Part shown: positions 4,563 through 48,106 of the stretch, one piece after another
Layout of the letters: each line of letters begins with the position of its first letter
How positions within the stretch are numbered: position 1 is the stretch's first letter
Source: Pachysolen tannophilus NRRL Y-2460
Lineage: Eukaryota
DNA: 64,000 nucleotides
Assembly (NCBI GenBank): GCA_001661245.1
Contig: KV454012.1
Span: 340,147 to 404,146 of the forward strand
Reading direction: 5' to 3'
Made by a program: the position numbers and the translations under genes
The notes under the pieces: generated by a model
The model's input: only the letters and a program-made list of their open reading frames with translations
Told to the model about the DNA's origin: nothing
The model's database searches: none

Positions 4563-4603
<41 letters not shown>

Positions 4604-9217: not shown

Positions 9218-9786
9218 TTATTGTTCGTGACTAATAAACTCAAATAAATTGAAAAAGTTCTCATTAAATTTTCCTTCACCTGTAGTATCTAAAAAGTTAT
9301 CGTACAATAGGGTCTGACTATTGAAATCTTCGTTCATGTCTAAAGACAGTTGAACTTGATGAGGATGAGGACTCGAATGATGATATTGCAGGTGAGCACC
9401 CATTGGCGAAGTCACAGCTTTCAAAGTTATCTCTGAATCAACGGTATTCATCAGATATGAGTTTGTATTAACGATGTGCTGTTCTACCAGTGGAAACTGC
9501 TCATGTTTCTGACGAATGCCACCAATAGCAATCTCGGGATTATTCTGCCATTGTTGATGCTTCAATTGCTTGTGATGAGAATGCTGTTGTGTCAATTTGA
9601 GATCCCCTTGGAAATCACTTGAGTTATCAATCTCGGTTTTCATTGAAAAATCAGGACTTGTTGGGGTTGCAATAGATGAAACACTATTAGCTGTCGTTGA
9701 ACCAGAAGGTATATCCAAAGGAGGACCTAAACAGCTACCAGAGATACCGGCATTGAAACTGCTTGGAGATGCAGTATCATTAATGC

Positions 9787-9817
<31 letters not shown>

Positions 9818-17950: not shown

Positions 17951-19668
17951 TCTCTTCGATATAATAGACTGCAATCTGTCTCAGCCAACTTTCTAATTTC
18001 AAATTCTTTAGTATAATCCTAAAGATTATTTACTATATAAATATATAGAAATTTTTCACAATAAAGAAAGAAAAAGAGAGAGAAAAAAAATCTCACTCAA
18101 GAAAAAATTAAATCTATTTTTATGGGAAAACCGTTTTTTTAAAAAAAAAAATGAAGCCAAAAAAAAATAAAAAAAACGAATAGTCGAAAATATAAAATCA
18201 ATCTTTGATTTATTATGATTAGTTGATGGATTGATCGTTTTAAAAATTCATAAACAAGTATTTACTCTGTAGTTACTTATTTATTATTTTCTTTTTTTTT
18301 TTTTTCCTAAATTTTTAAATTTTTTTTTTTTTTTCCTTTTTTTTTTTATGTGAACCGACAACTACACAGGATGGAAAAAAAAGATTTTTTTTTCCCGACA
18401 ACAAAAGTTACAATGTGACAAAGCCTTTAATTGGGTCTTGTATCAATTTTCTTTCACCTACAACTGAGTATAAACTTGATATTTTTTTTTTTAAAAAAAA
18501 TTAATCCTGTTTTTCCACTGAAAAAAAAAAAAAATCATGAGAACAACTATATAACTAAAAAATCAAAAAAGAAAAAGAAGAAAAAAAAAAATTAATTGTC
18601 TATATAAACAGTAATTGCTTTACAACGTTAACATGCTGTGCTTTTAGTTTTTCAATTTTGTATCTTTCCGATGTAGTACACGAGAACTTGGGTTAAAGCC
18701 TGAAAGCCTTACCCCGCCCACGAACCGACCAAACCGATAAAAACAATCAAAATTTATCACCAGTAAGTAACATACAAACAACTAAATCCTTTTAAATTGT
18801 TCATATGTATACTAAAATAAAACTTTGATCAAATCAATAACTTTGTGAAAAGGGAAACAAAAAAACCCTCGCAGTGGAAAAAGTACCTGCATTTCGCTAA
18901 ATCAAATATGAAACCATACAGAGTAAAACAACAATCAAACCAAACCCAAACCCAAAAGAAAAACAAACGCAAACGTAACCAAACCACAAGAATAAAATTA
19001 CTATCTGAAACAAGACTTCATAAATAGAAAAATATTCTTTAAATCAAAAAAAAAAATCTTCAAATCAAATCCCTTAATAAACCAAAATTATTACGTACCC
19101 TTAAAAAGCGAAAAAAAAAAAAATTCTAAAATTTTTATAGAGATAAACAAAATCCTAATGTTAAAAAGGAAATTTATGATTAAAAAAACAAGTTTTTTGC
19201 GGGAGATTCAACCCTTTTTATACCATTTCTGCAATAAAAACTTACTGACACGTGGTATTTGACCCACTCACTAACACGCACTGACAGAAATATTAATCAA
19301 ACAATCATATATATATGATTATTCATATGGATATGGTCAAAGATTACTGAAATTTTACAATTCTGACAACAATTCATGTCCCATACTACTCTGGATTTAA
19401 TTACTGTAATCTATAAACAAAATTGTACAAAAATTGGGTATTGGATATCTTCCCGCCAATGAAATCGCTGTATTTACTAATCCCATAGTGACTGGTTTTA
19501 CACACTTCCCATATTATTTCTCATCACTACCAAGTTTGTATGGGAAAACAACACAAAATTCACAATTTTTAGGGGCTGTCGTGTGGTTGAAACACAAAAG
19601 TCTCAATTCGAAAAAAGAAACAAAAAAAAAATTTTCTTTTTTTTGTTTCTTTTTTCTAACACTCTCTG

Positions 19669-19678
19669 TGAAAAATTT
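19669..19678 (+). promoter_or_regulatory. RRPE ribosome-biogenesis element upstream of RLI1
   Basis: TGAAAAATTT followed by a (TA)n tract; fits an RLI1 promoter located left of the flipped segment. Confidence 0.55.
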
Positions 19679-19691
19679 CTCTCTACTGAAA

Positions 19692-19722
<31 letters not shown>

Positions 19723-19744
19723 TAAGATAATATTTGAACAACAA

Positions 19745-19780
19745 GGAAACAATAGCAATACGTGTATTTTTATCACTCAT
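19745..19780 (-). CDS. RLI1: Inverted N-terminal 12 codons of RLI1 (MSDKNTRIAIVS)
   Basis: Reverse complement reads AATAAAGA ATG AGT GAT AAA AAT ACA CGT ATT GCT ATT GTT TCC, the conserved ABCE1/Rli1 N-terminus missing from the + strand ORF. Confidence 0.93.
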
Positions 19781-19915
19781 TCTTTATTCTCTTGCCTTTC
19801 TATCGAAGAAACTTATTTAAAAAACAAAAAAAGACACCCCAACTTCTTATAATTACTAACTGCTTTTTTATTTTTCAATAATTACACAGTTCTTGCTTGT
19901 CCTATAAAAGTGATA

Positions 19916-21700
19916 ACAGATAAGTGTAAACCCAAAAAATGTCGTCAAGAATGTCGAAAGTCTTGTCCGGTTAATAAAACAGGTAAATTGTGTATTGAGG
20001 TGACACCAGCAGATAAGATTGCGTTTGTTTCTGAGGTATTATGTATTGGGTGTGGTATTTGTGTTAAAAAATGTCCATTTGATGCATTGACAATTATTAA
20101 TTTACCAACAAATTTGGATAGTGAAGTTACCCATAGATATTCTGCAAATTCTTTTAAATTACATAGGTTACCTACACCAAGACCGGGACAAGTGTTGGGG
20201 TTAGTTGGTAGTAATGGTATTGGTAAATCAACAGCATTAAAGATTTTAGCAGGAAAACAAAAACCAAATTTAGGAAGGTATGATGATCCACCAGATTGGG
20301 AAGTAATTTTAAAATATTTTAGAGGTTCAGAATTACAAAATTATTTTACCAAAATTTTGGAAGATAATATTAAAGCAATAATTAAACCACAATATGTTGA
20401 TAATATTCCAAGAGCTATAAAAGGTCCAGTAAATAAAGTTGGTGAATTATTGACAGCTAAATTAGAACGTAAAGAACTGGGAAAGAAAATCGTTGATGTC
20501 TTGGAATTAAAACCTGTTTGGAAAAGAGAAATTTCTAAATTATCAGGTGGTGAATTACAAAGATTTGCAATAGGTATGGCATGTGTTCAAGATGCTAATG
20601 TTTATATGTTTGATGAACCTTCATCATATCTTGATGTTAAACAACGTCTTAATGCTGCAGAAATTATTAGATCATTATTACAACCTTCAGTATATGTCAT
20701 TGTTGTTGAGCACGATTTATCTGTCTTGGATTATTTGTCAGATTTTGTTTGTATTTTATATGGTGTTCCATCTGTTTATGGTGTTGTTACATTACCATCT
20801 TCTGTAAGAGAAGGTATTAATATTTTCTTGGATGGTCATATACCAACTGAAAATTTAAGATTTAGACATGAATCTTTACAATTTAGACTTTCTGATGCAT
20901 CAGATAATTTAATTATTGATCAATCAAGATCATTTTCTTATTCATCAATGAAAAAAACTCAAGGTGATTTCCATTTAAAAATTGAAGCTGGTGAATTTAA
21001 TGATTCCGAAATCTTGGTTATGATGGGTGAAAATGGTACAGGAAAAACTACATTTTGTAGATTATTAGCAGGTGCCATAGAACCAGATGAAGGTACAAAA
21101 GCACCTAAATTAAACGTTTCAATGAAACCACAAAAAATTGCACCAAAATTCACAGGAACAGTTAGACAATTGTTTTTAAAAAGAATCAGAGCATCTTTCT
21201 TACATCCTCAATTTAATACCGATGTTCTTAAACCTTTAAGAATAGATGATATTATTGATCAAGAAGTTCAACATTTATCCGGTGGTGAATTACAAAGAGT
21301 TGCTGTTGTCATGGCATTAGGTGCCCAAGCAGATATTTATTTGATTGATGAACCTTCTGCTTATTTGGATTCTGAACAACGTATTATCTGTTCTAAAGTT
21401 ATCCGTAGATTTATTATTCATTCCAAGAAAACTGCTTTTGTTGTAGAACACGATTTCATCATGGCCACATATTTGGCTGATAAAGTCATAGTTTTCGAAG
21501 GTACACCTTCAAAAGATGCCACTGCAAGAAAACCAGAAAGTTTATTAACAGGTTGTAATAGATTTTTGAAAAACTTGAATGTTACTTTCAGAAGAGATCC
21601 AAATTCGTTTAGACCAAGAATCAATAAATTGGACTCTCAAATGGATAAAGAGCAGAAATTGGCAGGAAATTATTTCTTCTTGGACAACACATCATTATGA
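19916..21700 (+). CDS. RLI1: ABCE1 Fe-S ABC ATPase (ribosome recycling), body lacking its start codon in this orientation
   Basis: [12 protein letters not shown]...[13 protein letters not shown]e-S domain, two NBDs ([26 protein letters not shown] twice), FRPRINK. Confidence 0.97.
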
Positions 21701-21917
21701 ACCATTTAAAAATGATTAATATAGCTTTTCTCTTCATTTTGGTTCTATAAAATGTACTAGAATATGTGATCTGATAAAGTAAAAAATTGGCTTTGTGGTC
21801 GTTGCAGAGCGAAAAATTTTTCAAAAAAATTTAAAAAAATTTAAAAAAAAAAAAATTTTTTTAGAGTCCGAAAATGGCAGACGGACAAAAAAAAAAAGTT
21901 TTTCCATTACTTTTTAT

Positions 21918-21924
21918 CGGGTAA
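21918..21924 (+). promoter_or_regulatory. Reb1-type site between RLI1 and PAB1
   Basis: CGGGTAA exact match to the Reb1 core. Confidence 0.4.
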
Positions 21925-22062
21925 ATAGTATAAAGTAAAAATTTCGGAAAAATAAATAATTTTTAAACAAAATTGTTTGGTAGTGTGCAGAAGCACAATT
22001 AAATGTAATCACATAGACAGCCCTCAAATTATTTAAAAATTAGAAACAAAAGAGGCTTTATA

Positions 22063-22140
<78 letters not shown>
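22063..22140 (+). repeat. Perfect (AAT)26 microsatellite upstream of PAB1
   Basis: 78 nt uninterrupted AAT run. Confidence 0.95.
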
Positions 22141-22586
22141 TATAAATGGTAATCAGTAATGATAAAATGATAATAAAGTAAACTAAAATACAAGAAACTT
22201 TTCTTTCTTCTTTTTATAGAAACCCCACTATTAAGCAAATGCAACTTTCAAGTAAAATAAAATAAAATAAAATAAAATAAAAAAAAAAAATTAAAAAGAA
22301 AAAAAAATAAAAAAAAACGCCGTCAAAATCACAAAAAAAAAATCTATCTTTTTCTTTCATTGCTTTCTCATTCACAGTTGCATTAAAACTCATTTTAATT
22401 AAACATATAATAATATATATTCCAATTATAGTTTTATTTGAATTCAATATATTCTCATATATATTACTCAAATTAATAACTTTTATATATATACTTATAT
22501 AAAAATTAAAAAAAAAAAAAAAAATAAAGAAAAAAAACTTTTAAAAAAAATTAGAAAAACCTAATAAAAAAATATATAATATAATA

Positions 22587-24473
22587 ATGTCAACCACCCA
22601 AGATTCAGCCAAGGAAGTTCAAGAGAAACTTGAAGGCTTATCCCTTTCATCAGACGCCGCTTCCTCTGCCACTCCTGCTGCTACCGAGGAAACCCCATCC
22701 ACTTCTACTGAAGATACTTCAAAAGTTGTTGAAAATTCTGCTTCATTATATGTTGGTGAATTAGATCCAAGTGTTAATGAATCTGAATTATTTGAAGTTT
22801 TTTCTCCAATTGGTCAAGTCTCTTCGATCCGTGTTTGTCGTGATGCTGTCACTAAGCGCTCTTTAGGTTATGCTTATGTCAATTTTCAAGATGTTAAAGA
22901 TGGTGAACGTGCTTTGGAAGAATTAAATTATACTCCAATTAAAGGTAGACCTTGTCGTATTATGTGGTCTCAACGTGATCCTGCATTACGTAAAAATGGT
23001 GCTGGTAATATTTTCATTAAGAATTTACATCCAGCTATTGATAATAAGACTTTACATGATACTTTTTCTGCTTTTGGTAACATTTTATCTTGTAAAGTTG
23101 CTACAGATGAATTGGGTAATTCAAAAGGTTTTGGGTTTGTTCATTATGAAACAGCAGAAGCTGCTCAAGCCGCCATTGAAAATGTTAATGGAATGTTATT
23201 AAATGACCGTGAAGTTTATGTTGGTCCTCATGTTTCTAAAAGAGAACGTGAATCCAAATTTGAAGATTTAAAGGCAAATTTTACAAATATTTATGTTAAA
23301 AATATTGATTTAGAAGTTAGTGAAGAAACTTTTAAAAGTTTATTTGAACCATATGGTAATATAACTTCAATTTATATTGAATACGATTCAGATGGTAAAT
23401 CTAGAGGTTTTGGTTTTGTTAATTTTGAAAATCATGAAGATGCTCAAAGAGCTGTTGAAGAATTAAATGATAAAGAAGTTAATGGTAAAAAAATTTATGT
23501 TGGACGTGCTCAAAAGAAAAGAGAACGTTTAGAAGAATTGAAAAAACAATATGAAGCTGCTCGTTTAGAAAAATTATCAAAATATCAAGGTGTTAATTTA
23601 TTTGTTAAAAATTTGGATGATACCATTGATGATGAAAAATTACAAGCTGAATTTGAACCTTTTGGTACTATTACTTCAGTTAAAGTTATGACTGATGATC
23701 AAGCTAAATCTAAAGGTTTTGGTTTTGTTTGTTTTTCATCTCCAGAAGAAGCTTCAAAAGCATTGGCTGAAATGAACCAGAGAATGGTTGCAGGTAAGCC
23801 ATTGTATGTTGCCTTGGCTCAACGTAAAGATGTTAGACGTCAACAATTGGAACAACAAATTCAAGCTCGTAACCAAATGAGAATGCAACAAGCTGCTGCC
23901 TCTGGAATTCCAAGTCAATTTATTAATCCAATGTTTTATGGTCAAGCTGCTCAACAACCAGGTTTCTTACCACCAAATGCTAGAGGTAATGCTCCATTTG
24001 CCGGTGGTCCAAACCCTCAAATGATGATGCAACAAGGTATTCCAAGACCTGCACAAATTCCAATTCCACAAGGTCAATTTAACCGTGCTCCAAATGGTCA
24101 ACCTTTACCAGTTTATGGTATGCCACCTGTATTCAATAATGTTCCACAACAACGTTATTACAACAATAGAAACCAAGGTGGTCCAAGAAGACCACAAAAC
24201 CAACAAATTAAGCCAGAAGAAGGTACTTCTTTAGCTTCAATTTTACCTCAATATCCACCAGAACAACAAAAGAGAATGTTGGGTGAAGAATTGTATCCAA
24301 AAATTGTCAACACTGGTAAAGCCACAGATGCTGAAGCTGCCGGTAAGATTACAGGTATGATGTTAGATTTAGAGAATGATGAAATTTTAGCTTTATTGAG
24401 CGATGATAAATTATTTGAATCCCATTTTAATGATGCCTTAGCTGCATACCAACAATACAAAGCTGAAAAATAA
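22587..24473 (+). CDS. PAB1: Poly(A)-binding protein
   Basis: Four RRMs ([41 protein letters not shown]), Q/P-rich linker, MLLE/PABC domain (LGEELYPK...[10 protein letters not shown]). Confidence 0.98.
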
Positions 24474-24867
24474 GCATTTGTAAAATTCTAAAGCTTTATT
24501 TTTCACCTTTTTTTTTTTTNTTTTTTTTTTTTTTTTTTTTTTTTTGTAGTATATATATAATTGTTATTTTTTTTGATTTTTGAATTTTGAAAGATTTATT
24601 TGAATATATATAAAAAAAGGAAACAATTTTTTGTAGAATTAAGATAGAGTTCAAGATTAAATTAATAATTATTTCATCTATTTTTGATCTCTATTTGATA
24701 AACGTTGTTGATAATCTCTATTTTTAAAGAGAAGAAAATTCGTGTATCCGATAACGAAAGAAGAAGCTTTTATAAATTAAAAAATTACATGCTCTGCTGG
24801 GCCTTCTCATCATTAACAAATAAAATATAGACTTTTCATATATATCAAACTATTTGAGTTTTGAAAG

Positions 24868-26122
24868 ATGTCTTCTACTAATAGTGTGAGTGGAGATTCC
24901 ACGAATGATATAAATTCACATTGTAAGTTGAAAAAAAAAAAAAATTTAAAACTGATTTAGTATATATATATATATATATGTATATATTATGACATGGATA
25001 TTTGACTAACAATTAAATATAGTAATTTATACAACTTTAACATCAAATTCGACTACTTTGTATACTAATGAAAATTTGAATATTACTTCTTGTTTGAATA
25101 TTAATTGCACTGAACTTGTCTCTGAGGAATTGGGTTATATAAATTCAAATAAGGATAGTGCACATAGTAGTAGTCTTGGTAGCGCTAATGGTAATGGGTT
25201 GAAAAAGACAGGGAATTTTGGTAGTATTATAATAAATGGTAATACTTTATATCGAGGTTCCATTACGGTTAATTTAATGTTATATTATTTCAAATATTTA
25301 TTGCCAAGTAATGATTTGATTACAATAGTGACGATATGTACAGATAAGTTGAATCAAAATTTTGTTTTAAATGTCTTAAATCGAATTTTGAAAGAATATA
25401 AAATTTTTAAAGAAGAACAAGATCTGTTGATTTCGGACCAAAAGACCAAACTTGCTAATAATAACCTGAATCAAAATAGTAACGCTGTTGGATCCACTTA
25501 TTTCCATTTTGGACATCAACAGCAACCACAACAACAGCAAAATTCATCATCCCCTAAATCTCCTAAGAATGAAGATGGTACTACTATTGTTGGTGATATA
25601 GACAAGCATAAAGAACCAAATAAGTTAGAATTTAAGATAAAATTTAATCAAATTATAAAATTTGAAGAATTGAAGTTATCTAAATATAAAAACTATTATT
25701 CTGCACTGAATAATAGTAATGGAAATACTTTTGGTAATGCTGATGAAGTTGGATTGGCAAATGACGAAATTGATGAAGTGCGTAATATGATGAACGAAAA
25801 CATTGAAAGAGTGATAGACCGTGGAGAGAGGATCAGCTTATTAGTGAACAAGACTGATCGGTTAAATAATGTTTCGAGTTCTTTCAGAAGAAGAACAATC
25901 TCTATTAGAAGAAAATTTTGGTGGAAAAATTTTAAATTCTTCCTGATGTTGAGTGCATTACTAGTCATCTTTATGTACTTATTTGGAGGTGAGTTTTGTG
26001 GACTACCGCTTTACTCCAAATGCTTTGAGCATGGTGGAGGTAGTGATGGCGATGGCAGCGGTCGTAGTAGTGGTGGTGGTGGTGGTGGTAATGGTGGCCA
26101 TACCGGTGCTTTATTGGACTAG
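24868..26122 (+). CDS. Longin R-SNARE (VAMP7/Nyv1-like); exons 24868-24922 and 25023-26122
   Basis: Synaptobrevin motif EIDEVRNMMNENIERVIDRGERISLLVNKT...WWKN plus TM helix; intron GTAAGT...GACTAAC...TAG is frame-consistent. Confidence 0.85.
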
Positions 26123-26321
26123 TGATTGGGTACCGATTTGGAAAGGGAAAGCTGTAATAATATAGAATTAGTTGAGTTTTTAATGAAGTACTTTGAAGTC
26201 TTTGCTAGATTTATAGTTTACAAAAATTAGAAAATAAAGTTCGTGGTTAAAGTAGTAATAATAATAAAATTAAGAAAAAAAAAGTAACATATATATATAT
26301 ATATAGACATTTTTTGGTTAA

Positions 26322-27374
26322 CTATTCATCCACTTCATCATCTTCTTCATCATCTTCGTCTTCACCTTCAGTAGCTGATTTGAAATTTTCTTCGTGATTT
26401 TCATTTTCTTCACCTTCTAATTCTATATGTTCTTTTTCGAGTATTTGAGAAGGATTCAATTTTTGCTGTGAGTTTTGGGCATGATCTTCATCATCATCAT
26501 CATCGTCATCCTCTTCTTCTTCTTCTTCTTTTTCTTCTTCTGCAACATTTGCCTCGTCATTGTCTTCGCCATTGTCATCGTCATCATCATCATCATCATC
26601 ATCACCGTCTTGCTCTTGTTTTTCCTTTTCTGTATCCTCTCCTTTGGCAACCGTATTACCTTTGTTATCTTTTAACTTTTTTGGTTTCTTTTCAGTTTCC
26701 TTTGTCTCTTCATCCTCTACTTCCTCCTCATTCACACTAGCATCTTCCTTATCATCATTAAGATTTTGTTCTCCAATAGCTTCTTGTTTTTGTTTTTTCT
26801 TTAATTGCAGTTTCAGTGTAAAATTTTCTAATTCATCTTTTATAATTGGAATATAAGAATCAAATCCAGTAAGTTCTAATGCATTTATAATATCTTGTGC
26901 ATTGACCGTTTTCCTATTTGCATCCTTAGCTATCTGCGTAGCATGATGGAAAAGGTGACTTATATATACAACACTACTTCTTTGAATCAATGTTAATGAA
27001 TCTTTAGCTAATATAAAAGAAGATTTTTCAGGAAGATTTTCTTCTTCTTCTATATTATTATTACCTTCATTTTCTTCAGAATTTTTTTCTGGAATTAAAA
27101 CAGACTTTGCTATTCTTGCAATGGTTGCCTTGGGGAAAAGAATTTCCTAAATCAAAAAAAAAAAAAAAAAAAACAAACCTCATATTAGTACTCAAAATCA
27201 TCAATTAATTAATTTTAAAATAAAATCTTTTAAACTTACATCTATCGAAATAATCTCATGATTTGACAGTTGCAGTTGCTGCAGCGGCAGCGGCAGCAGC
27301 AGCAGAACTCCAGATGGATTATTTCCATCAGACGAATCTTGCAGCTGGCTCTTCCTCCACCCTTTAGCTGGCAT
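26322..27374 (-). CDS. DPB4: DNA polymerase epsilon/ISW2 histone-fold subunit; exons 27374-27240 and 27146-26322
   Basis: MPAKGWRK start, ISID|EILFPKATIARIAK, histone fold (RKTVNAQDIINALE), acidic tail; GTAAGT donor, TACTAAT branch, TAG acceptor. Confidence 0.92.
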
Positions 27375-27449
27375 ATTCTATAAACCTTTTTTTTTTCTTA
27401 AGTTTTAGTTGTATCTTTTACCATATAAAAATATATATATACTTTTTCA

Positions 27450-27455
27450 ACGCGT
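27450..27455. promoter_or_regulatory. MCB element upstream of DPB4
   Basis: ACGCGT 76 bp upstream of the ATG of a replication gene in very AT-rich DNA. Confidence 0.5.
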
Positions 27456-27924
27456 TTTTCTTCATACTAATTCTCTTTTTCTTTTTACTTTCTTGGGGAT
27501 TTGAAGTAGTGCAGCGCTAACTCAAAAAAACTAAAAAGAGAAATTTAAGCGTGTGGCTGCAGAATGAAATAAGATAGAGATGAGGACAGAGATTTAAAAA
27601 AAAAAAAGTAATAGCAAACATATAAACATATAATAAATATATATACAAAGAAGAATTAGACGCTGTTTATAAAAAAGTTACTTTTATAAATTATTGTTTT
27701 AAAATAGTATTGAAACTATTTTAATAAAAGACAAGGTGAATAGATAAATTGAATTATATTGAGAAAAAGAGAGAAAAAAAATTTTGTTTTTGTTTTTTAA
27801 ATTTTTCGAAAAGGGGTGGTAATAGGGATATGCATAGTTTTAAGGTAATATTAATAAAGTATTAAGATTAAAAGAAAAAAAAAAAAAAAAAAAAAAAAAA
27901 GAGAGTGGATTTGAGGATTTGAAA

Positions 27925-30900
27925 ATGGGTGACCATAAGGTGGATGATACAATTCGAATACCTAGAAGATCGTTTACTGCTTTTAGATTAACGTATTGTA
28001 CTTCAAGACAAATTTCGAAAAACTCAGAAGTTATCTTGTTGGGGCCAATTCCAAATATATGGGTTACAAGTAGGTCTTCAGTGGTTTTAAAATCAATGGC
28101 TCGGTTGTCTCATAGAGAGAAAGTTAAAGATGTAATTTATAGGAAATGCAGATCAGTTGATGAGACTCTCAAGGAATGGGAGGCTTTTGATCTGACAAGT
28201 ACAGAAGAAGAAGAGGAAGAAGAAGAGCTGCGGCGCGAGAGAGAGGTTCGCTCTACAATCAGTCCTCTGGTGCCTTTGAAAAAATTACCAGAATTAACTA
28301 TCCAAGGTTTTGAGAAAGCATCAGATAGTAGAAATGGTCATAGGCAAATTACTACAGGAGGCTCAACAAGTTCAGAAATTAACAATTCTTATACAACAAC
28401 TACTGCAACAGAAAATTCAGATTCTGTAGGTGTATATGCCAATCATAGTGTCATAAATAATGTTCTTCAACCTTTATTTAGATATGATTCAAAAATATCA
28501 AAAAATACACACTCAAGGGGTAAAAAATTTAATGAAAGAAGAAGCATTGATGAAAATATCAATAGTCTGGAATATAAATCAAAAATAATAGGTTGGAATA
28601 ACGATATTGAAGATTTATCAATACTAAGAGATTCTTTTAATTTAGAAAATGAAAATGAAAACGAAAATACTATAAAATTAACTACCTTACCACAAAATAA
28701 TAATATAATTAATAATGATCAATATCGAATGCTTTCTCAAACTGGTGGACTTTCAAGTAGTACTCTTATTCATGATGATAAAGAAAAGAATAAAAAAATA
28801 AAATCATCCAATGTTGAACCAAATGGTTTCAACACTCAGCGGAACCTTAAATCATTAAATAATACTTCTCCTAAAACAGAAATTATAGACCCTGGTCCTA
28901 AATCCATTAATTCACAAATTTTAAGTCAAACAAAAAGGAATAACTCACTGCCAATATCAAGAAGGGTAGAACCCCAAATTAAAGAAAAGTTGAATATAGA
29001 TCAACAGCCGCTAATTTCTTCCATATATGCCAATATCCACGCACGACAGTTGGCTAATGAAAGTAAATATTCTGAAAAATCAAGTAATCTTCAATCAGGT
29101 ATATCCAATAACAATACTGAAAACTATGCAACAAAGTCGTTATCTTTATCATATAAAAGTGCAAAAGGTGATTTACTGCTAACTGATAGCAGCAAAACTC
29201 ATGATCACGATCATGATCATGATCCAAATGTTGAAACTGTAAACTCTTCACTCAATAACGAAGATTCAATTTTGCTATTCCAAAAAAAGCTTCCATTGAG
29301 GCAAAACATTTATGATGACCAAACTAATCAGGAATCTGAATTTTCTAAAAACTTACCTCAGGTATTGAACGGTGATAATAAAAAAACACAAACGAAAAGT
29401 CTGTCTCCTAGTTTTGAAGATAAAGCATCCTTAAATGCTTTCCTGACAACTTATTCAGTTCCTGGTGCCAGTTCATTATCTTCTAATTCTAATTCTTTGA
29501 GCTTAACAGATGATTCTCAAAAGCAAAAAAACAATCAAGTTCCAAAAACTTTACAACATTCCGAAGAAACTACAAAAAACGCAAGCTTTTTCAAAGTATC
29601 ATTTGCTAACCCTGAAAAGAAAAGGACAAAAGGTTCAACGATCAGTAAACTTGGTGCTAATGGTGTTCTGATTAAAAAAATAAGACCCAAGCCTTTGAAC
29701 GCAGAGCATCGATCATTGGTCTATCCAGTAGAGGCAAAACATTATCAAATATTGAAAAGATTAGAAAAAAGAGCTTTCAGCGTTAAACATAAATTCACAA
29801 AAGAGGTTGAAAACTTGGAGAAAAAGAGACGTTTGAAACTGAAGCTAAAGAATTTTCAAAATGGATCAATTATAAAAGTGGAAAAAATGCTTGTTCTAGT
29901 TAAAACTTCTCTTTCTTCTATATGTCATACCGTAGCGGTTTCTGGCCTAATGGAGAACGAGGGGTGCGACACCAGAGTTGTTGAGAGATGGAAGGAATAT
30001 ATTGTGGTAGTAAGATCAACAGGTGACTTGGAAAATCCACTTTACATTCAATTTTACAGAAACAGGAAGATTCCAGAGAAACAGACATCACAGAAGAATG
30101 AATTTGATTTTAAATTAAATATTCATACTAGTATCGTTAAATTTTATAGCTCACTTGACAAGACAATTTCCATCACTATGAAAAATTCTGAGAATGGTAG
30201 CTATATGTTTTATATATTGAGAACAAGTACTCAGTCTTCAGCAATACGATGGCATTCATTTTTTCAGGAAATTTTGGGTTACAAAGTGAAATCAAAGCTT
30301 AGGTTGGATCTCCCTGAGCTTGATGTATCTATGAATATAAGTATACCTTACTGTGATTTTGAAAGGATTATCAAAGAGGGTCAGAGGAGAAAAGAAGAGT
30401 TTGAAATATTAGTCAAAAATAAAGGATACAAAGTTGAACAAATAGCATTTTCAGATTACTTGATTAATATCATTGCGAAAAACTTGAAAGAGTGCAACTT
30501 GTATCATGAAAAGATAAAATTTTTGGAGTATCAGGATCATCTATTCTCTTTTGCATGGAAACATTATGATCGATTAGAATGGATATTTGGCGAAAATCAA
30601 AATTTACTATATGGAAAATGGTCAATGGGTTCAACGCATACGTTGGAATTTAGGTCAGCCAAACATTATCCAACAACTGTTTTAACAACTGAAGGAAGAC
30701 ATGTATCTGAGCCTATCCCAATAGAAGGATTTTTAGGCAGATTAACTTCAAGATCTGGAAAAGATATTTCTTCCTTTCTTAAAAAACCAATTTTCAAATT
30801 AAAGTACTTCTACACTAACGATAATATGTTAATGTTCTGTAAACCTTCAAGAGCCATACCCCCGTTGCCTGAATCAATCGATTTTGAATCTTGTTTTCAG

Positions 30901-32118
30901 AATGGCGAGAGACTCAAGGAAGTTATTAATTCGATGCCAGCAATTTATCAGAAAAACCCATTCAAGTTGGATGATAACGATCATATTGAGTGGCTAAAGC
31001 CAGGCATGAGTAAAGCTGAGTTTATCCAAAAGGACAGGCATGCGTTACAAGAAATGGAACGAAAAATATCTCTGGTTACCAGAGCAGATGGTTTAATTGA
31101 TATGTGTCAAATAATACAGGTTAAATCAGTTCCAGTTAGTGAAATCAAAAATATAATCAAAACTGCTAGTAGTTTACTTTGGACTTCCTCGCCTACTCAT
31201 GTTAATGACATGAATTTAGTGGATGCTTGTTTTGATATAATATTGAATGATGGTGGAATTATTAGGTTACAGGCTCCTTCAAGATCTATTAAATATGAAT
31301 GGATCGCCAAGTTAATTCAAATGAGAGATTATTGGATTCAAAGGAAAAAAGATGATTTATCGAGATTAATGAGAGTCAGGCAAAAAAACATGGAGATTTT
31401 ACATGCTAGCGAATATGTTGAGTCTACAATTTCTCATTCTACACCTAAGTGGGAGACTTCAAGAGGTATTGCAGACTCCTATATATACAACGTCAGTGGT
31501 ACGGCATTATCAAGATGTGTCGTGATGAGTGGAATCTTATATCAAAAACCTAAAAAGCATTCAGTTTTTACAAAATACTTTGTCGTATTATGTCCCGGGT
31601 TCATAATTTTATACAGTATGTTCAAAAGAAATCACTCAGGTTTTGTTAAAAGTACTACTGATTATAGACATTATTTAACAATTCCAGTCCATGAAAGCTA
31701 TGTGTATTCAGGGATGAATACCACACTAGACTTACTAGATAGAAATGAAGAGTTTGATGAGATCCACCCGGGGCACTATTCGTTGCCAAGAATTTATCCT
31801 GATTTCTGGAAATCTTCAGAAGAAGAATCGGAAAGATGTTTTACCTTGTGGTTCGGTACCAAAAGAGCTATTGCAGGCAAAAAAGAGCATATAAATAGGA
31901 GGACTAATGATAGTCACGCTAGCTTACAAAATTCACAAATAAATTCCTCTCGAAATCCTGGGTTAATCAGAATGGTAAATAGATTAGGAGTCACTGGTAG
32001 AAGCATTGTGTTTATGGCAAGGTCAAGACAAGAAAGAGACTTGTGGGTTACAAGGTTACTCTCCCAGATTGAAAGGTTTGCGGTTTTAGATTATGATGAG
32101 ATCAAGTTGGTTCATTAG
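27925..32118 (+). CDS. SPO71: Prospore membrane PH-domain protein
   Basis: IPRRSFTAFRL N-terminus, EKMLVLVK...DTRVVERWKEY, WKHYDRLEW, EPIPIEGFL, SGILYQKPKKHS, C-terminal FMARSRQERDLWV. Confidence 0.9.
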   Translation: MGDHKVDDTIRIPRRSFTAFRLTYCTSRQISKNSEVILLGPIPNIWVTSRSSVVLKSMARLSHREKVKDVIYRKCRSVDETLKEWEAFDLTSTEEEEEEEELRREREVRSTISPLVPLKKLPELTIQGFEKASDSRNGHRQITTGGSTSSEINNSYTTTTATENSDSVGVYANHSVINNVLQPLFRYDSKISKNTHSRGKKFNERRSIDENINSLEYKSKIIGWNNDIEDLSILRDSFNLENENENENTIKLTTLPQNNNIINNDQYRMLSQTGGLSSSTLIHDDKEKNKKIKSSNVEPNGFNTQRNLKSLNNTSPKTEIIDPGPKSINSQILSQTKRNNSLPISRRVEPQIKEKLNIDQQPLISSIYANIHARQLANESKYSEKSSNLQSGISNNNTENYATKSLSLSYKSAKGDLLLTDSSKTHDHDHDHDPNVETVNSSLNNEDSILLFQKKLPLRQNIYDDQTNQESEFSKNLPQVLNGDNKKTQTKSLSPSFEDKASLNAFLTTYSVPGASSLSSNSNSLSLTDDSQKQKNNQVPKTLQHSEETTKNASFFKVSFANPEKKRTKGSTISKLGANGVLIKKIRPKPLNAEHRSLVYPVEAKHYQILKRLEKRAFSVKHKFTKEVENLEKKRRLKLKLKNFQNGSIIKVEKMLVLVKTSLSSICHTVAVSGLMENEGCDTRVVERWKEYIVVVRSTGDLENPLYIQFYRNRKIPEKQTSQKNEFDFKLNIHTSIVKFYSSLDKTISITMKNSENGSYMFYILRTSTQSSAIRWHSFFQEILGYKVKSKLRLDLPELDVSMNISIPYCDFERIIKEGQRRKEEFEILVKNKGYKVEQIAFSDYLINIIAKNLKECNLYHEKIKFLEYQDHLFSFAWKHYDRLEWIFGENQNLLYGKWSMGSTHTLEFRSAKHYPTTVLTTEGRHVSEPIPIEGFLGRLTSRSGKDISSFLKKPIFKLKYFYTNDNMLMFCKPSRAIPPLPESIDFESCFQNGERLKEVINSMPAIYQKNPFKLDDNDHIEWLKPGMSKAEFIQKDRHALQEMERKISLVTRADGLIDMCQIIQVKSVPVSEIKNIIKTASSLLWTSSPTHVNDMNLVDACFDIILNDGGIIRLQAPSRSIKYEWIAKLIQMRDYWIQRKKDDLSRLMRVRQKNMEILHASEYVESTISHSTPKWETSRGIADSYIYNVSGTALSRCVVMSGILYQKPKKHSVFTKYFVVLCPGFIILYSMFKRNHSGFVKSTTDYRHYLTIPVHESYVYSGMNTTLDLLDRNEEFDEIHPGHYSLPRIYPDFWKSSEEESERCFTLWFGTKRAIAGKKEHINRRTNDSHASLQNSQINSSRNPGLIRMVNRLGVTGRSIVFMARSRQERDLWVTRLLSQIERFAVLDYDEIKLVH

Positions 32119-32146
32119 ATTTGTTTTTGAATATTTCCCATGTTTT

Positions 32147-33538
32147 ATTGTTTCACTTCAAACACCAAAACCTTCGGTCTTAAAAATAGAAGCATTAAAT
32201 GCAGATGACCAGTATTTAAGCAGCGATAATGCATCTGTTGTGGAAAAATGGGGGGCCGCATTGAGCGATTTGGAAATGTTGTTTCCGAACGAATTCCTAA
32301 CTGGAACAATTGAATTATCTGACATTGGAGATGAAGATTGTTCTGCCTCGACTATACAACGAAATTCATTGGCAACTACTATAGGAAGAGATGAAAATTT
32401 CCAGATTTCGGATGTTAATATGCTGAGTTTGAGTGCTAATTTATTAAACATCTCGACAAGATCTTCTTATTTCCCACGGAAATCGCAAAACGCCATTATC
32501 CTTATTCTAAATCAATATAACATGTCACAGAATTCAGTAACAATTTTCAAAAATATAATTAGAGCTTTAGCATTGATTGAGTTAGAAATTTTTTTTGTGT
32601 CGACAGAAAAAGTATCATTATCGCTTGAATCAGGTTATAAATCAAAGGCAGTTATCTTGAAGAATAACTGTGAACAGGAACTTATTGATGCGTTGGATAA
32701 AGGGAAGGATAACAGTTCTTTTTCAAACCAAGAAGGAAACTTATCAACGGTAATAAATGAATATTTGCTGGAATGTAAATATCCATTAGAGCAGATTGCA
32801 ACTGTGGTTTTATCAAATTTATCGCTAAACTTGAATAATTTTCCAACCATAAAGAATATATTTATTGAAATTGGCGTTGTAAATAATAAGAATAGCCCAC
32901 TTGAAATATATTCGTACCCTCAAGATAGGACCACGGTCAAGTTAAATTCTTGGGATGATGTGATGGAAAGAATATGCGGTGAATTAGATTTGTCTTTTGA
33001 TCGAATTAATGATAATGATCAACAACAAGAAAACAGAAACTCTATCAAAAGTATTTTTGGTTTTGGTTTTGGTTTTGGTACTGGTACTGGTAAGAATATC
33101 TCTCCCAGGCAATCCGAAGATAGTTCACTTAAAAAACAGAACCTAGGATTACCAATTACTGATGATTTCAGTAAGCATGATTCGGAAAGTATTTCTTCAG
33201 AGAGTGACTCAGATGCTGAAGTAATTGACGAATTATTAGAAAATTTTGATACCAGCGATATTGATGCAGATTCAACTACATACAAGGATACCTATCCCAA
33301 CACTAACAAACCAGTTGACTTGTTTTGTGAACTGATTAATTCAGAAGATAAAAAAGCGAATGCGATTGAAAACATTGATACATCTGCCTTAAATCCAAGA
33401 ATCTGGTCTGAAAATTCAAAATTGAATTACAAAATTGAAAGTAGGCAGAGAATGGACAATAGTTCAGGTAGATGGAGTTCGCTTTTTTCAGATATTGACC
33501 GTGCTCTATATGAAACTTCTAAATCCCCATATGAGTAA
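32147..33538 (+). CDS. STE5: Inverted C-terminal half of the Ste5-like scaffold (end of PH domain, VWA-like region, acidic tail); left boundary approximate
   Basis: Begins mid-domain: TPKPSVLKI...YLSSDNASVVEKWGAALSD...FP, resembling the last strands and Trp-containing helix of a PH domain. The nominal ATG at 32093 lies inside SPO71 and leaves no promoter space. Confidence 0.75.
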   Translation: MVSLQTPKPSVLKIEALNADDQYLSSDNASVVEKWGAALSDLEMLFPNEFLTGTIELSDIGDEDCSASTIQRNSLATTIGRDENFQISDVNMLSLSANLLNISTRSSYFPRKSQNAIILILNQYNMSQNSVTIFKNIIRALALIELEIFFVSTEKVSLSLESGYKSKAVILKNNCEQELIDALDKGKDNSSFSNQEGNLSTVINEYLLECKYPLEQIATVVLSNLSLNLNNFPTIKNIFIEIGVVNNKNSPLEIYSYPQDRTTVKLNSWDDVMERICGELDLSFDRINDNDQQQENRNSIKSIFGFGFGFGTGTGKNISPRQSEDSSLKKQNLGLPITDDFSKHDSESISSESDSDAEVIDELLENFDTSDIDADSTTYKDTYPNTNKPVDLFCELINSEDKKANAIENIDTSALNPRIWSENSKLNYKIESRQRMDNSSGRWSSLFSDIDRALYETSKSPYE

Positions 33539-33849
33539 AACCTTCCTTTGCATAGTTCAAGTTAGACATTAATCATTAATTGATATGGGAAAAAAAACAA
33601 CAGATTTCGGATAACTACAAATTTTTCTACCACCTATGTAATATTTTCATAATCCTTTGTGACAAATTTGAAATTACTTTACATAGAATGTACATAAGAC
33701 ACTTGAATATAAATATACATCTTTTTTATATTCCAGATAATAGTTGAGGTATATCAATCAATCAAACTTTTTAGGCTTTTTAGTTATATCCAAATTTATA
33801 GTATGACAACCAACCTGTAAGCTTCAAATTTTACACATCTTCATAAATA

Positions 33850-33931
33850 GGCAACGTGGCCGAGCGGTTAAGGCGAAAGATTAGAAATCTTTTGGGATTT
33901 TCCCGCGCAGGTTCGAGTCCTGCCGTTGTCG
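33850..33931 (+). tRNA. tRNA-Ser(AGA), 82 nt with long variable arm
   Basis: Acceptor GGCAACG/CGTTGTC, discriminator G, A-box TGGCCGAGCGG, anticodon arm AAAGA-TTAGAAA-TCTTT, variable arm GGGA-TTT-TCCC, T-loop GTTCGAGTCC, followed by an oligo-T terminator. Confidence 0.98.
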
Positions 33932-34048
33932 TTTATTTTTTATTCTCTAATTTTTTTTTTTTCCTTTTTAGGAAGATACGTATGCATAAGAAATCATGTT
34001 TAATACCTTTTACCTAAAATTCTATTTAATTAGCAAAAGCAAAACACT

Positions 34049-35695
34049 CTATAAATTTGAATTGATGCAAAAATTTGCCTTTATACCCAGTGGTGAAGAA
34101 GCAGGACTTGAAGCATTGTGATCAACATTATTCAGCAATTTGATTGTATAATAATCGTTATAATCTGAATTAACAATCAACAATTGAAAACTAAATAAGT
34201 AGCAATATTTGTTTGACCAGTTTTTACCATCTTTTGAAACTAAAAGTTTATCAGCTAATCTTAATAATCCAAAAGAATCGACTATGGATTCACTTATTTC
34301 CCTTTTAACTTTTTGTTTTTCAAAATTTCTAGTTAAATCAGCTATAAATCTTGAACGAAGTAATGCCAATGGTATACTATTATTGAAAGATTTTTGTGTG
34401 TGAATAGAACTAAAGACTTTTGTCTTTGTAGAAGTTGGGGATGAAATTGGTGATTTTGAAGCTGATGAAATAATTGATGACATTGCTGATATTGAAGAAC
34501 CTCTTGAAGCTTTTCTATGATGTAATGATGCTATCCCAGACGCCACAAGTCTTTTGTCTGGAATATCAATTGATAAATCAGAATTTGGTCTAATTTTACC
34601 TTTTCTTGAAGAAGATGATGGGGTTGTTGAACTAATGATGGAAGGGCTTAATCGTAATTTTGGAGTTGTTGTTATTCTTTTATTTTGATCTTTTTTAGAT
34701 ATGGAAGTTGGTAACGAGATTTTAGAATTCTCAAGTAATTGTTTTGTTAAAATCGAATCTGCAGTATTATCATCACTTGGAATAGCCTCTTGATTACATT
34801 TTTTACATATAGGAAATATTGATCTACCATTTGTATTTTTTAATCCATTTGAAATTTTTCCTAGATCATCAAAAGTTTCTTCTTCAATAACAATGTTTTT
34901 AGGTGTTTCAACTGTTGAAAATTCTATTGCAACGTTAAAACATTGTTCATGACAAGTATCACCACATTTTAGTTCTATAATTTTTTCTGAAATATCTGTT
35001 GAAGTTAAAACAGATTCTAAAGGTTCATCACAAAAAACGCACCGTATTCCAAGTAAATTTTTACGTTGTCTTGGAGATTGATTATAAGCAAATGGTTGAA
35101 CTCTTGGAGGTGAAGATAATCTAGAAATAGAAGAAGTTGGAAACTTGATTCTTGGTTCTGATGAAGGTACGTTACGTATATGACGTACTGGAGTTCTAAA
35201 AGGATCTGGTAAATCTTGAATTTCAAAAGTGGGTTTATTGATTCTTGGGAACGGGGACTGAGAAATTTCTGGAACTTCTATCTTTGGCATTGATGTTGAT
35301 TTTGAAATATTTGCAGCTGGAAGTAATTTATTATTATTATTAAATTTTGATTTTTTCTTGAAAAACAATGATGGAGAACTAGGCATTTTCCTATGAGTAT
35401 TATTACCATTACCAGCAACTGCATTACGAGAAACTGAATTACCACTGACTTTAGCATCAGTGTGCCTGCTTAAATTATTCGTTAAAGCATTCAAAGATTC
35501 TTCATCAATTAAACTTCCTGGTGGTATTATTGATTTCTTATTCTTATTAATATTATCACCACCATGTGATCCAGGTGATGAAAACCTTGTCTTTGGCTTC
35601 CAACTTGTAGATAATGACGGCGAAACCGAATCCATCTTATCTATATCTCGATCTATTATATTATTACTATTTTTTCTTTTAGGTTTCAATGACAT
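34049..35695 (-). CDS. STE5: Ste5-like MAPK scaffold, N-terminal half (RING-H2 plus first part of the PH domain), truncated at the inversion junction
   Basis: RING-H2 CVFCDEPL...ELKCGDTCHEQC...FPICKKC, then FGLLRLADKLLVS...CYLF (Ste5/Far1 PH start). Neighbour of SPO71, as STE5 (YDR103W) is of SPO71 (YDR104C) in S. cerevisiae. Far1 is not excluded by sequence alone. Confidence 0.8.
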   Translation of the reverse strand: MSLKPKRKNSNNIIDRDIDKMDSVSPSLSTSWKPKTRFSSPGSHGGDNINKNKKSIIPPGSLIDEESLNALTNNLSRHTDAKVSGNSVSRNAVAGNGNNTHRKMPSSPSLFFKKKSKFNNNNKLLPAANISKSTSMPKIEVPEISQSPFPRINKPTFEIQDLPDPFRTPVRHIRNVPSSEPRIKFPTSSISRLSSPPRVQPFAYNQSPRQRKNLLGIRCVFCDEPLESVLTSTDISEKIIELKCGDTCHEQCFNVAIEFSTVETPKNIVIEEETFDDLGKISNGLKNTNGRSIFPICKKCNQEAIPSDDNTADSILTKQLLENSKISLPTSISKKDQNKRITTTPKLRLSPSIISSTTPSSSSRKGKIRPNSDLSIDIPDKRLVASGIASLHHRKASRGSSISAMSSIISSASKSPISSPTSTKTKVFSSIHTQKSFNNSIPLALLRSRFIADLTRNFEKQKVKREISESIVDSFGLLRLADKLLVSKDGKNWSNKYCYLFSFQLLIVNSDYNDYYTIKLLNNVDHNASSPASSPLGIKANFCINSNL

Positions 35696-48018: not shown

Positions 48019-48106
48019 GCACAATATATATATCATATATCTAGTTTGTTTTTTTTTTGTCAATAAAAAATGAAAATTCAAAAATATAAAAAAAAAAAAA
48101 AAAAAA

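What the first reader, a model, noticed from the sequence alone, without database searches (positions are those of the whole stretch)
19745..34120. Two independent clean gene-breaking inversions within 15 kb: candidate repeat-less DNA inversion process versus sequence artefact
Both broken genes keep open frames and conserved motifs with no sign of decay, so the inversions are very recent, reversible, or not biological. Neither lies at an N-gap. Loose similarities exist near the junctions (AATATTT on the left, CTATAAA..TGA on the right in both), but they are not equally spaced in a frame-consistent way and are expected in AT-rich DNA. No recombinase or transposase is encoded in the window. Further inversions confined to intergenic DNA would be invisible to me. 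Because RLI1 is essential, I rate artefact at least as likely as a programmed system.
Basis: inference. Interest (0 to 1): 0.75.

Follow-up and report, generated by a model that had tools for sequence, protein, structure and literature searches.

The report
Two flipped gene pieces, probably misassembly
Two short stretches of this draft yeast sequence lie back to front and cut two otherwise perfect genes, one of them essential, which is most simply a fault of the sequence record and not a new DNA-flipping system.

Summary
RLI1 codons 13-606 lie on the + strand (19916-21700). Codons 1-12 (MSDKNTRIAIVS) lie on the - strand at 19745-19780. Flipping 19745-19915 (171 bp) restores the N-terminus of the closest homologue exactly. 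A Ste5/Far1-like gene runs on the - strand from 35695 to about 34070-34120 and continues on the + strand from about 32140-32155 to 33538. That is a flip of about 1.9 kb that also carries a tRNA-Ser gene.

Neither flip has inverted repeats, microhomology or N-gaps at its junctions. The shared junction motifs are not robust (P from 0.01 to 0.46). The other roughly 19 genes of the window are whole.

The broken 548-aa ORF is in the public protein set, seen on one 2.19-Mb contig, so the flip is in the public record.

I rate a record or assembly artefact at about 0.72:
- An essential gene is left with no usable start.
- Both genes are undecayed.
- The window shows other local assembly faults: every N-run sits in a homopolymer, and two of three long gaps are flanked by duplicated sequence.

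No artefact mechanism was shown, and reads or a second assembly could not be consulted. A real heterozygous or subclonal rearrangement gets about 0.18, and a programmed system about 0.03.

The parts
19745..19915 (.). Inverted segment 1 (171 bp). It holds RLI1 codons 1-12 and about 135 bp of the gene's 5' flank, in reverse orientation.
   Evidence: Flipping exactly this block gives [20 protein letters not shown], as in P0001.
19745..19780 (-). RLI1 codons 1-12 (ATG..TCC), stranded on the opposite strand.
   Evidence: The 12 residues are 12 of 12 identical to the start of P0001.
19916..21700 (+). RLI1/ABCE1 codons 13-606 plus the stop codon. The frame is intact.
   Evidence: 90% identity to P0001 over 100% of the query. 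Fer4_RLI starts at profile position 9 of 35, so the first 8 positions are missing from this strand; Fer4 and two ABC_tran stretches are present.
32141..34069 (.). Inverted segment 2, about 1.9 kb. This is a working placement; the left junction lies within 32138-32159 and the right within 34066-34126.
   Evidence: collinear orthologue alignments; codon-usage score keeps rising on the N tail to 34073; the orthologue HMM prefers R = 34117-34126 with L = 32150-32159.
32141..33538 (+). C-terminal part of the Ste5/Far1-like gene: the end of the PH domain and the region after it, up to the stop codon.
   Evidence: E = 3.7e-29 to P0128 residues 510-775; weak Ste5_C match, E = 0.27; the EKWGAALSDL helix is conserved.
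34070..35695 (-). N-terminal part of the Ste5/Far1-like gene (Cys-rich finger and first half of the PH domain). As it stands it reads on to a stop at 34049-34051.
   Evidence: PH_10 profile positions 1-74 of 121; the 548-aa ORF is in the public protein set as P0121.
33850..33931 (+). tRNA-Ser(AGA) gene carried inside inverted segment 2.
   Evidence: ARAGORN; Rfam tRNA, 58.3 bits.
27925..32118 (+). SPO71-like gene. Its stop codon lies 20-40 nt before the left junction of segment 2. As the sequence stands it has no 3' flank of its own, and the C-piece frame overlaps its end.
   Evidence: (Spo7_2_N, PH_SPO71, and PH_4 at 1-181 of 183).
19729..19735 (+). AATATTT, 10 nt left of junction 19744|19745. 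Its counterpart is at 32130-32136.
   Evidence: 71 matches in the window against 76.7 expected.
19902..19913 (+). CTATAAAAGTGA, ending 2 nt before junction 19915|19916. Its counterpart, CTATAAATTTGAATTGA, is at 34049-34065.
   Evidence: 6 matches in the window against 4.75 expected.
19746..19754 (-). TATTGTTTC at the left end of segment 1. The same 9-mer lies on the + strand at 32146-32154, at the left end of segment 2.
   Evidence: 3 matches in the window against 2.21 expected, and 2 of the 3 are at these segment ends. P = 0.008 for this flank pair alone.

Best explanation
The two flips are faults of the sequence record. Two blocks, 171 bp and about 1.9 kb, were written in the wrong orientation while a short-read, scaffold-level draft was assembled or improved. 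In the living yeast both genes are most likely whole. Shown: the flips, their cleanness, the lack of repeats, the non-viability of the present RLI1 arrangement, and other assembly faults nearby. Inferred: that the organism carries the other orientation, and which software step did the flipping. Candidates are mis-orientation of small contigs by wrongly oriented read pairs, followed by gap closure.
For: 1. RLI1 cannot be expressed as it stands.
- Codons 1-12 and the 5' flank point away from the gene body.
- The body's frame has no ATG before codon 242 of the ORF.
- The - strand exon is followed by TTGTTGTTC, not by a 5' splice site. Six real introns in this window use GTAAGT or GTGAGT.
- Sources name the S. 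cerevisiae orthologue YDR091C an 'Essential iron-sulfur protein' (rows P0091 and P0106).

2. There is no decay.
- The RLI1 body is 90% identical to P0001 over its full length.
- Both pieces of the second gene are open frames.

3. The one junction that can be read to the base is blunt and conservative, with 0 nt of microhomology. This is what reverse-complementing a block in software gives.

4. The window is draft quality.
- It has 5 N-runs, and all 5 lie inside poly-A or poly-T runs.
- 2 of the 3 long gaps are flanked by tandem copies of the adjacent sequence: 54346-55042 against 55188-55884, differing only by small indels, and 4320-4603 against 4797-5084.
- Pieces of 0.3-0.7 kb were therefore mishandled elsewhere in the same 64 kb.

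5. The broken 548-aa ORF is known from 1 member sequence on 1 contig (2,193,613 bp) in the protein collection. No independent assembly is known to repeat it.

6. Wrongly oriented read pairs in mate-pair libraries are a described cause of scaffolding errors (10.1101/025650; abstract and passages seen).
Against: No mechanism for the artefact was shown.
- The junctions carry no N.
- There are no inverted repeats of k-mer size that would let a graph assembler traverse a block backwards.
- Contiguous sequence across all four junctions suggests that some reads, or a closing step, supported them.
- A flipped contig normally leaves gaps or overlap scars, and none is seen.

With the second junction placed at 32141/34069, the flanks of the two flips share a 7-mer, a 9-mer and a 7-mer. 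P(sum) is 0.016, and 120 of 20,000 simulations had 3 or more flank pairs sharing at least 7 nt.

No intact form of the second gene was found among proteins of 817-2330 aa. The tool itself calls that result weak. It also cannot speak to an intact form hidden inside another cluster.

Ploidy and copy number of the region are unknown to me. That the species is haploid is my recollection only.
Confidence: 0.72

Rival explanations
1. The flips are real but not programmed. They would be one recent complex rearrangement, or two, carried on one of two copies of the region (a diploid, disomic or segmentally duplicated state) or by a large subclone of the sequenced culture. The assembler then happened to take the rearranged path. 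Two double-strand breaks rejoined end to end, or replication template switches, would produce them.
For: The sequence is continuous across all junctions without N. Blunt, repeat-free joins fit end joining. Two events 12 kb apart could be a single complex event. In a strand-symmetric assembly graph, a heterozygous flip leaves both orientations equally traversable (inference). A (TA)n tract at 19690-19725 lies 20 nt from one junction, and such tracts are fragile (recalled).
Against: A haploid cell could not live with this RLI1. No ambiguity codes or other signs of heterozygosity occur in the window: the base counts hold only A, C, G, T and N. Perfect conservation at the readable junction is unusual for two-break end joining (recalled). 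The only duplicated sequences seen are gap-flank artefacts.
Confidence: 0.18
2. A programmed or reversible inversion process that needs no repeats, acting at short sequence cues (AATATTT, TATTGTTTC, CTATAAA..TGA). It would switch genes off and on in this CUG-Ala yeast.
For: With the second junction at 32141/34069 or 32144/34066, the corresponding 25-nt flanks of the two flips share AATATTT, GAAACAATA (as reverse complement) and CTATAAA. P(sum) is 0.010-0.017. 2 of the 3 TATTGTTTC sites in 64 kb sit at the left ends of the two segments. Both genes are undecayed, as expected for a reversible state. The likely species does invert its MAT region, but through 2-kb inverted repeats (PMC6692504, passages seen).
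Against: The motif signal disappears when the junction is placed where the orthologue HMM prefers it (P = 0.19-0.46) and weakens with wider flanks (P = 0.05-0.07 at 35 nt). Each motif occurs at chance frequency in the window. The motif spacings differ between the two flips. The two ends of each flip are unrelated to each other, unlike every known invertase site. No recombinase, transposase or nuclease family appears among the Pfam hits of the 22 ORF translations scanned. Switching off an essential gene has no evident use.
Confidence: 0.03
3. These are not inversions at all. The - strand pieces would be leftover pseudo-exons or duplicates, and the genes would be completed by introns or trans-splicing from elsewhere.
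For: The genome is rich in short first exons: 6 genes of the window have one. A TACTAAC box lies on the + strand at 19853-19859, upstream of the RLI1 body.
Against: No ATG-bearing exon followed by GTAAGT, GTATGT or GTGAGT lies on the + strand in 19380-19915 (my reading). The - strand piece supplies exactly the 12 missing codons and ends on the exact codon boundary. The C piece of the second gene supplies exactly the missing half of the PH domain and everything after it. Neither piece is duplicated elsewhere in the window.
Confidence: 0.02

Closest known systems
Mis-oriented small contigs and local misassemblies in short-read scaffold assemblies (for example from wrongly oriented pairs in mate-pair libraries; 10.1101/025650)
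   Same: A draft with gaps, small blocks affected (0.17 and 1.9 kb), perfect sequence inside the blocks, genes broken without decay, and other small-block errors nearby.
   Different: There is no N and no overlap scar at the junctions. The step that produced the flips was not identified.
Flip/flop mating-type inversion of methylotrophic and CUG-Ala yeasts (Pachysolen tannophilus: an 8-kb region between 2-kb inverted repeats; PMC6692504)
   Same: A DNA inversion in what is probably the same species. It is reversible and affects gene expression.
   Different: That system works by homologous recombination between long inverted repeats and breaks no gene. No inverted repeats are present here.
Site-specific invertases (FLP/FRT of the 2-micron plasmid; Hin/hix and Gin/gix)
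   Same: They invert a defined block cleanly, to the base.
   Different: They need matched inverted sites at both ends and a recombinase. Neither was found. My knowledge of these systems is recalled.
Scrambled germline genes of spirotrich ciliates (inverted gene segments joined at pointer repeats)
   Same: Gene pieces lie on opposite strands with intact coding sequence, in AT-rich DNA.
   Different: Those pieces carry matching pointer repeats at their ends and are unscrambled in a second nucleus. Here there are no pointers, and the organism is a budding yeast with ordinary genes. My knowledge of that system is recalled.
Two-break end-joining or template-switch micro-inversions in somatic or laboratory genomes
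   Same: They need no repeats, are small, and are sometimes clustered.
   Different: They usually leave microhomology or small indels (recalled). The readable junction here has neither.

Membership tests
Assembly or record artefact (mis-oriented block) | The sequence comes from a draft assembly that shows other local errors. | tested here: met
   There are 5 N-runs, all in homopolymers. 2 of the 3 long gaps are flanked by duplicated copies that differ only by indels.
Assembly or record artefact (mis-oriented block) | The block boundaries coincide with contig joins, N-gaps or overlap scars. | tested here: not met
   The nearest N is at 24520, 4.6 kb away. There are no palindromes or duplicated bases at the junctions.
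Assembly or record artefact (mis-oriented block) | Reads or an independent assembly support the opposite orientation. | not testable with these tools
Assembly or record artefact (mis-oriented block) | The arrangement as written is biologically untenable, while the flipped arrangement is normal. | tested here: met
   RLI1 lacks its start and first 12 codons. Flipping restores the homologue's N-terminus exactly and one complete PH domain.
Inversion mediated by inverted repeats (flip/flop, homologous recombination) | Inverted repeats flank the inverted block. | tested here: not met
   In one search, local alignment of the left flank against the reverse complement of the right flank scored no better than shuffles (174 of 300 and 206 of 300 shuffles scored at least as high). 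Searches agree.
Site-specific recombinase switch | Matched recombination sites at both ends, plus a recombinase gene. | tested here: not met
   No matched sites. No recombinase, integrase or transposase family among the Pfam hits of the 22 ORF translations scanned. Genes outside the window were not examined.
Ciliate-type scrambled gene | Pointer repeats at the ends of consecutive gene segments. | tested here: not met
   There is 0 nt of shared sequence at the RLI1 coding junction.
Split gene joined by splicing | A 5' splice site after the upstream exon, and a branch point with a 3' site before the downstream exon, on the same strand. | tested here: not met
   The exons lie on opposite strands. 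The - strand exon is followed by TTGTTGTTC. Real introns of the window start with GTAAGT or GTGAGT.
RLI1/ABCE1 (identity of broken gene 1) | An N-terminal Fe-S domain followed by two ABC ATPase domains; about 606 aa in yeasts. | tested here: met
   Fer4_RLI, Fer4 and two ABC_tran stretches; 90% identity to a 606-aa homologue.
Ste5/Far1-type mating scaffold (identity of broken gene 2) | A Cys-rich RING-like finger, a PH domain (PH_10) and a Ste5_C/VWA-like C-terminal region. | tested here: inconclusive
   The PH_10 half-domain scores just under the curated cut-off (24.4-26.7 bits against 27.5). Ste5_C gives only E = 0.27. The Cys-rich motif is seen by eye. One orthologue is named only 'Zinc finger protein'. 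That Ste5 and Far1 share this domain architecture is recalled.

The most novel reading that the evidence does not exclude
A CUG-Ala clade yeast has a repeat-independent, reversible DNA inversion process that cuts and flips short blocks at loose AT-rich cues (AATATTT ... TATTGTTTC ... CTATAAA-TGA). It would transiently break genes, including an essential one, in part of the population. The assembly would have caught two such events within 15 kb.
Probability: 0.03. Interest if true: 0.85.

Novelty: not a real feature. Interest (0 to 1): 0.2.

Why it matters
If the flips are artefacts, the value is practical. A public yeast scaffold carries at least two gene-breaking orientation errors and two gap-flank duplications in 64 kb. 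The essential gene RLI1 and a mating-pathway scaffold gene would therefore be mis-annotated or counted as missing or fragmented in comparative studies that use this record. The broken 548-aa ORF is already in the public protein collection.

If the flips were real, they would be either an unusual clustered rearrangement carried in a type-strain culture or, at long odds, a kind of DNA inversion with no precedent in fungi. A single read mapping or PCR settles the question.

Tried and rejected
1. Intron or trans-splicing explanation for RLI1. Rejected: the exons lie on opposite strands, there is no 5' splice site, and no alternative first exon lies in 19380-19915.

2. Inverted or direct repeats at the junctions. 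None exceeded chance. The long 'inverted repeats' are N-runs and poly-A against poly-T.

3. One nested large inversion instead of two small ones. Rejected on paper: it would swap the two blocks and would not restore either gene.

4. Shared junction motif. Counts in the window match chance. The composite AATATTT-N-TTTATAG has 0 matches in the window as it stands. Closeness to the junctions gives P = 0.010-0.46, depending on junction placement and flank width. Left as unexplained, not as evidence.

5. Exact placement of the second flip. Codon usage and the orthologue HMM disagree by about 50 nt. Unresolved.

6. More broken genes in the window. Six apparent N-terminal truncations are ordinary short first exons. 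Pfam domain coverage is complete in the other genes that have a Pfam match; the ORFs at 3285-4301, 9218-11914 and 60411-62633 have no match.

7. Search for an intact long form of the second gene. None found among 7999 scored candidates of 817-2330 aa, which is weak evidence.

8. Cluster membership of P0001 and P0121.

9. Papers on how the likely species was assembled (Riley et al. 2016; Liu et al. 2012). Not held. PMC4580222 has no occurrence of 'inversion' or 'inverted', and PMC4293462 mentions the species only in passing.
Full report
**What the window is.**
The window is AT-rich (about 30% G+C) and encodes ordinary budding-yeast genes. Pfam assigns them as CHD1, RLI1, PAB1, a longin SNARE, a histone-fold protein, SPO71-like, PDA1, BRR2, RAD3, LOS1 and others.
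- RLI1's nearest named relatives are Ogataea, Komagataella, Kuraishia and Ambrosiozyma, at 86-87% identity. One unnamed protein, P0001, reaches 90%.
- The public protein P0121 is the 548-aa ORF at 34052-35695 (- strand). It has Ala at both CTG codons of that ORF, 2 of 2. The record was therefore translated with the CUG-Ala code.
- That code and the base composition point to the CUG-Ala clade, probably Pachysolen. This is my inference; the clade's membership comes from passages of PMC6692504.

**Inversion 1.**
- The + strand frame 19853-21700 holds RLI1 from TDKCKPKK onward. It has no ATG before its codon 242.
- The - strand of 19745-19780 reads ATG AGT GAT AAA AAT ACA CGT ATT GCT ATT GTT TCC, which is MSDKNTRIAIVS, and then leaves coding sequence.
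- All 12 of 12 homologues printed start with this conserved dodecapeptide pattern.
- P0001 starts [20 protein letters not shown] and is 606 aa long, which equals 12 + 594.
- Pfam's Fer4_RLI model begins at profile position 9 of 35 on the + strand piece.
- Reverse-complementing exactly 19745-19915 (171 bp) therefore restores the gene with no base missing or added at the coding junction. It also puts about 135 bp of 5' flank and the (TA)n tract at 19690-19725 upstream of the ATG.
- A 12-of-12 residue match that ends on the exact codon boundary is far beyond chance.

**Inversion 2.**
- The - strand ORF 34052-35695 has a Cys-rich finger and the first 73-74 of 121 positions of Pfam PH_10.
- A search of 1.84 billion representatives gave 70 proteins at E of 0.001 or better.
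- Against 12 of these, the N piece aligned to 12 of 12. The + strand ORF 32090-33535 aligned to 9 of 12; it did not align to P0133, P0136 or P0137.
- The C-piece match lies directly after the N-piece match in 6 of the 9. It overlaps the N-piece match by 12-18 residues in the other 3 (P0122, P0126, P0131).
- The best C-piece match is P0128 residues 510-775 (E = 3.7e-29), against 188-494 for the N piece.
- The conserved PH helix EKWGAALSDL is on the + strand piece.
- An HMM of 14 orthologue PH regions scores the N piece at 76 bits, the C piece at 45 bits, and joined forms at 120-129 bits.
- The block also carries tRNA-Ser(AGA) at 33850-33931.
- As written, the SPO71-like gene's stop codon (32116-32118) is followed at once by the C-piece frame.

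**Where the second flip's junctions lie.**
- The junctions could not be fixed to the base.
- The codon-usage log-odds keep rising along the N tail to residue 541 (34073). That places the right junction at about 34066-34075.
- The orthologue HMM prefers the shortest loop, with R = 34117-34126 and L = 32150-32159.
- The closest orthologue, P0128, has a 15-residue insert at this point. That fits the first placement.

**Is anything special at the junctions?**
- No N lies nearer than 24520.
- Local alignment of each left flank against its right flank, direct and reverse-complemented, and of flanks between the two flips, never beat shuffles. Between 67 and 300 of 300 shuffles scored at least as high, across 8 comparisons. 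Seed-based repeat searches agree.
- The RLI1 coding junction has no microhomology.
AATATTT has 71 matches against 76.7 expected. CTATAAA-N(0-8)-TGA has 6 against 4.75.
- I found a third shared word, TATTGTTTC. It has 3 matches in the window against 2.21 expected, and 2 of the 3 lie at the left ends of the two blocks.
- With the second flip at 32141/34069, the four pairs of corresponding 25-nt flanks share 7, 9, 7 and 5 nt. In 20,000 simulated pairs drawn from real intergenic and coding windows, P(sum of 28 or more) is 0.016. Also, 120 of 20,000 simulations had at least 3 pairs sharing 7 nt or more.
- The signal is not robust. Over 4 junction placements and 3 flank widths, P ranges from 0.010 to 0.46. 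It is 0.19-0.46 at the placement the HMM prefers.
- I record the motif overlap as unexplained, not as evidence.

**Are there more flips?**
- I checked every stop-to-stop ORF of 120 aa or more that is plausibly a gene.
- Six of these genes lack an ATG at or near the start of their main ORF: 9218-11914 (- strand), 25010-26122, 26322-27146 (- strand), 45649-48018, 52815-54308 and 56443-59508.
- Each has an upstream ATG-bearing mini-exon with GTAAGT or GTGAGT, a TACTAAC-like box and a YAG.
- Pfam domains are complete in the other genes that have a Pfam match. The ORFs at 3285-4301, 9218-11914 and 60411-62633 have no match.
- So 2 of about 21 genes are broken, and both lie within 15 kb.
- Flips confined to intergenic DNA, or flips that turn whole genes, would not be visible.

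**Is the flip in the public record?**
- Yes for the second flip. P0121 is the broken ORF, including its non-native read-through to the stop at 34049-34051.
- Its 90% cluster has 1 member seen on 1 contig, of 2,193,613 bp.
- No protein from this organism covering RLI1 appeared among proteins of 326-1040 aa; the best hit was 90% identical.
- An intact copy could be hidden as the second member of P0001's cluster. The tool that would show this was switched off.
- A search for an intact long form of the second gene found none, which is weak evidence.
- I therefore have one record and no independent check.

**Quality of the record.**
- All 5 of 5 N-runs sit inside poly-A or poly-T runs.
- Two of the three long gaps are flanked by tandem copies of the neighbouring sequence.
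- The first pair is 54346-55042 against 55188-55884. The copies differ only by 1-3-nt indels and have no substitutions. That looks like two consensus versions of one locus.
- The second pair is 4320-4603 against 4797-5084.
- Blocks of 0.3-0.7 kb were thus mishandled twice more in this window.
- A paper I read in passages describes a public scaffold-level assembly of P. tannophilus with contig N50 in the 10-100 kb class (PMC13232491).

**Weighing.**
- As written, RLI1 has no start, no promoter-proximal flank and no first 12 residues of its Fe-S domain.
- Database names call the S. cerevisiae orthologue essential (rows P0091 and P0106).
- A haploid cell could not carry this arrangement. That the species is haploid is my recollection.
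- The rest of the picture fits a block written backwards in software better than a biological event. The two events are close together, undecayed and repeat-free. The one readable junction is base-perfect. The draft has other block-level errors nearby.
- Against this, I cannot name the step that flipped the blocks, and the junctions carry neither N nor overlap scars.
- A real rearrangement on one of two copies, or in a subclone, therefore stays open.
- A programmed system has only the fragile motif overlap in its favour. It lacks matched sites, a recombinase and a rationale.
- My odds: artefact 0.72; real but unprogrammed 0.18; programmed 0.03; not an inversion 0.02; the remainder unassigned.

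**What stayed unchecked.**
- Reads, any eukaryotic genome collection, and cluster members could not be consulted.
- The assembly methods papers (Riley et al. 2016; Liu et al. 2012) were not held.
- Supplements were not consulted.

Noticed in passing
34052-35695 (-); 21xxx (RLI1 residue 188 of the + strand piece); about 27262-27344 (-): Evidence for the CUG-Ala genetic code. The public protein P0121 has Ala at both CTG codons of this ORF. RLI1's single CTG codon aligns with Ala in 3 of 6 homologues. Exon 1 of the histone-fold gene has a run of in-frame CTG codons, which reads as an Ala-rich tract under that code (my reading).
   Followed up: partly
54346-55042 and 55188-55884, around N-run 55043-55187: A block of about 697 bp is present twice, on either side of a gap. 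The copies differ only by small indels and have no substitutions. This is most likely one locus assembled twice.
   Followed up: yes
4320-4603 and 4797-5084, around N-run 4604-4794: A second gap-flank duplication, about 284 bp long and bounded by poly-T runs.
   Followed up: partly
1147-1340, 4604-4794, 9102, 24520, 55043-55187: All five N-runs, including the two single Ns, lie inside long poly-A or poly-T runs. Contigs in this record break at homopolymers.
   Followed up: yes
11780-11915 (-), 24869-25020, 27146-27374 (-), 45606-45684, 52519-52814, 56299-56442: Six genes have very short first exons followed by canonical introns (GTAAGT or GTGAGT, a TACTAAC-like box, then YAG). RAD3's first exon is only ATGAA. 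ORF lists alone make these genes look truncated.
   Followed up: yes
19853-19859 (+): A perfect TACTAAC box lies inside inverted segment 1, followed by a T-rich stretch and AG sites just upstream of the RLI1 body. No matching 5' exon or splice donor was found. By my own rough estimate it is a chance occurrence, with a probability of about 0.04 for a 171-bp block counted on both strands.
   Followed up: partly
19690-19725: A (TA)n microsatellite lies 20 nt left of junction 19744|19745. It could be a fragile site or a point where a contig ends.
   Followed up: no
48105-48390 (-): A fungal signal recognition particle RNA gene (Rfam Fungi_SRP, 129.3 bits, full length).
   Followed up: no
17981-19700: About 1.7 kb between CHD1 and RLI1 has no ORF of 120 aa or more and no Rfam match. 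Its content was not examined.
   Followed up: no
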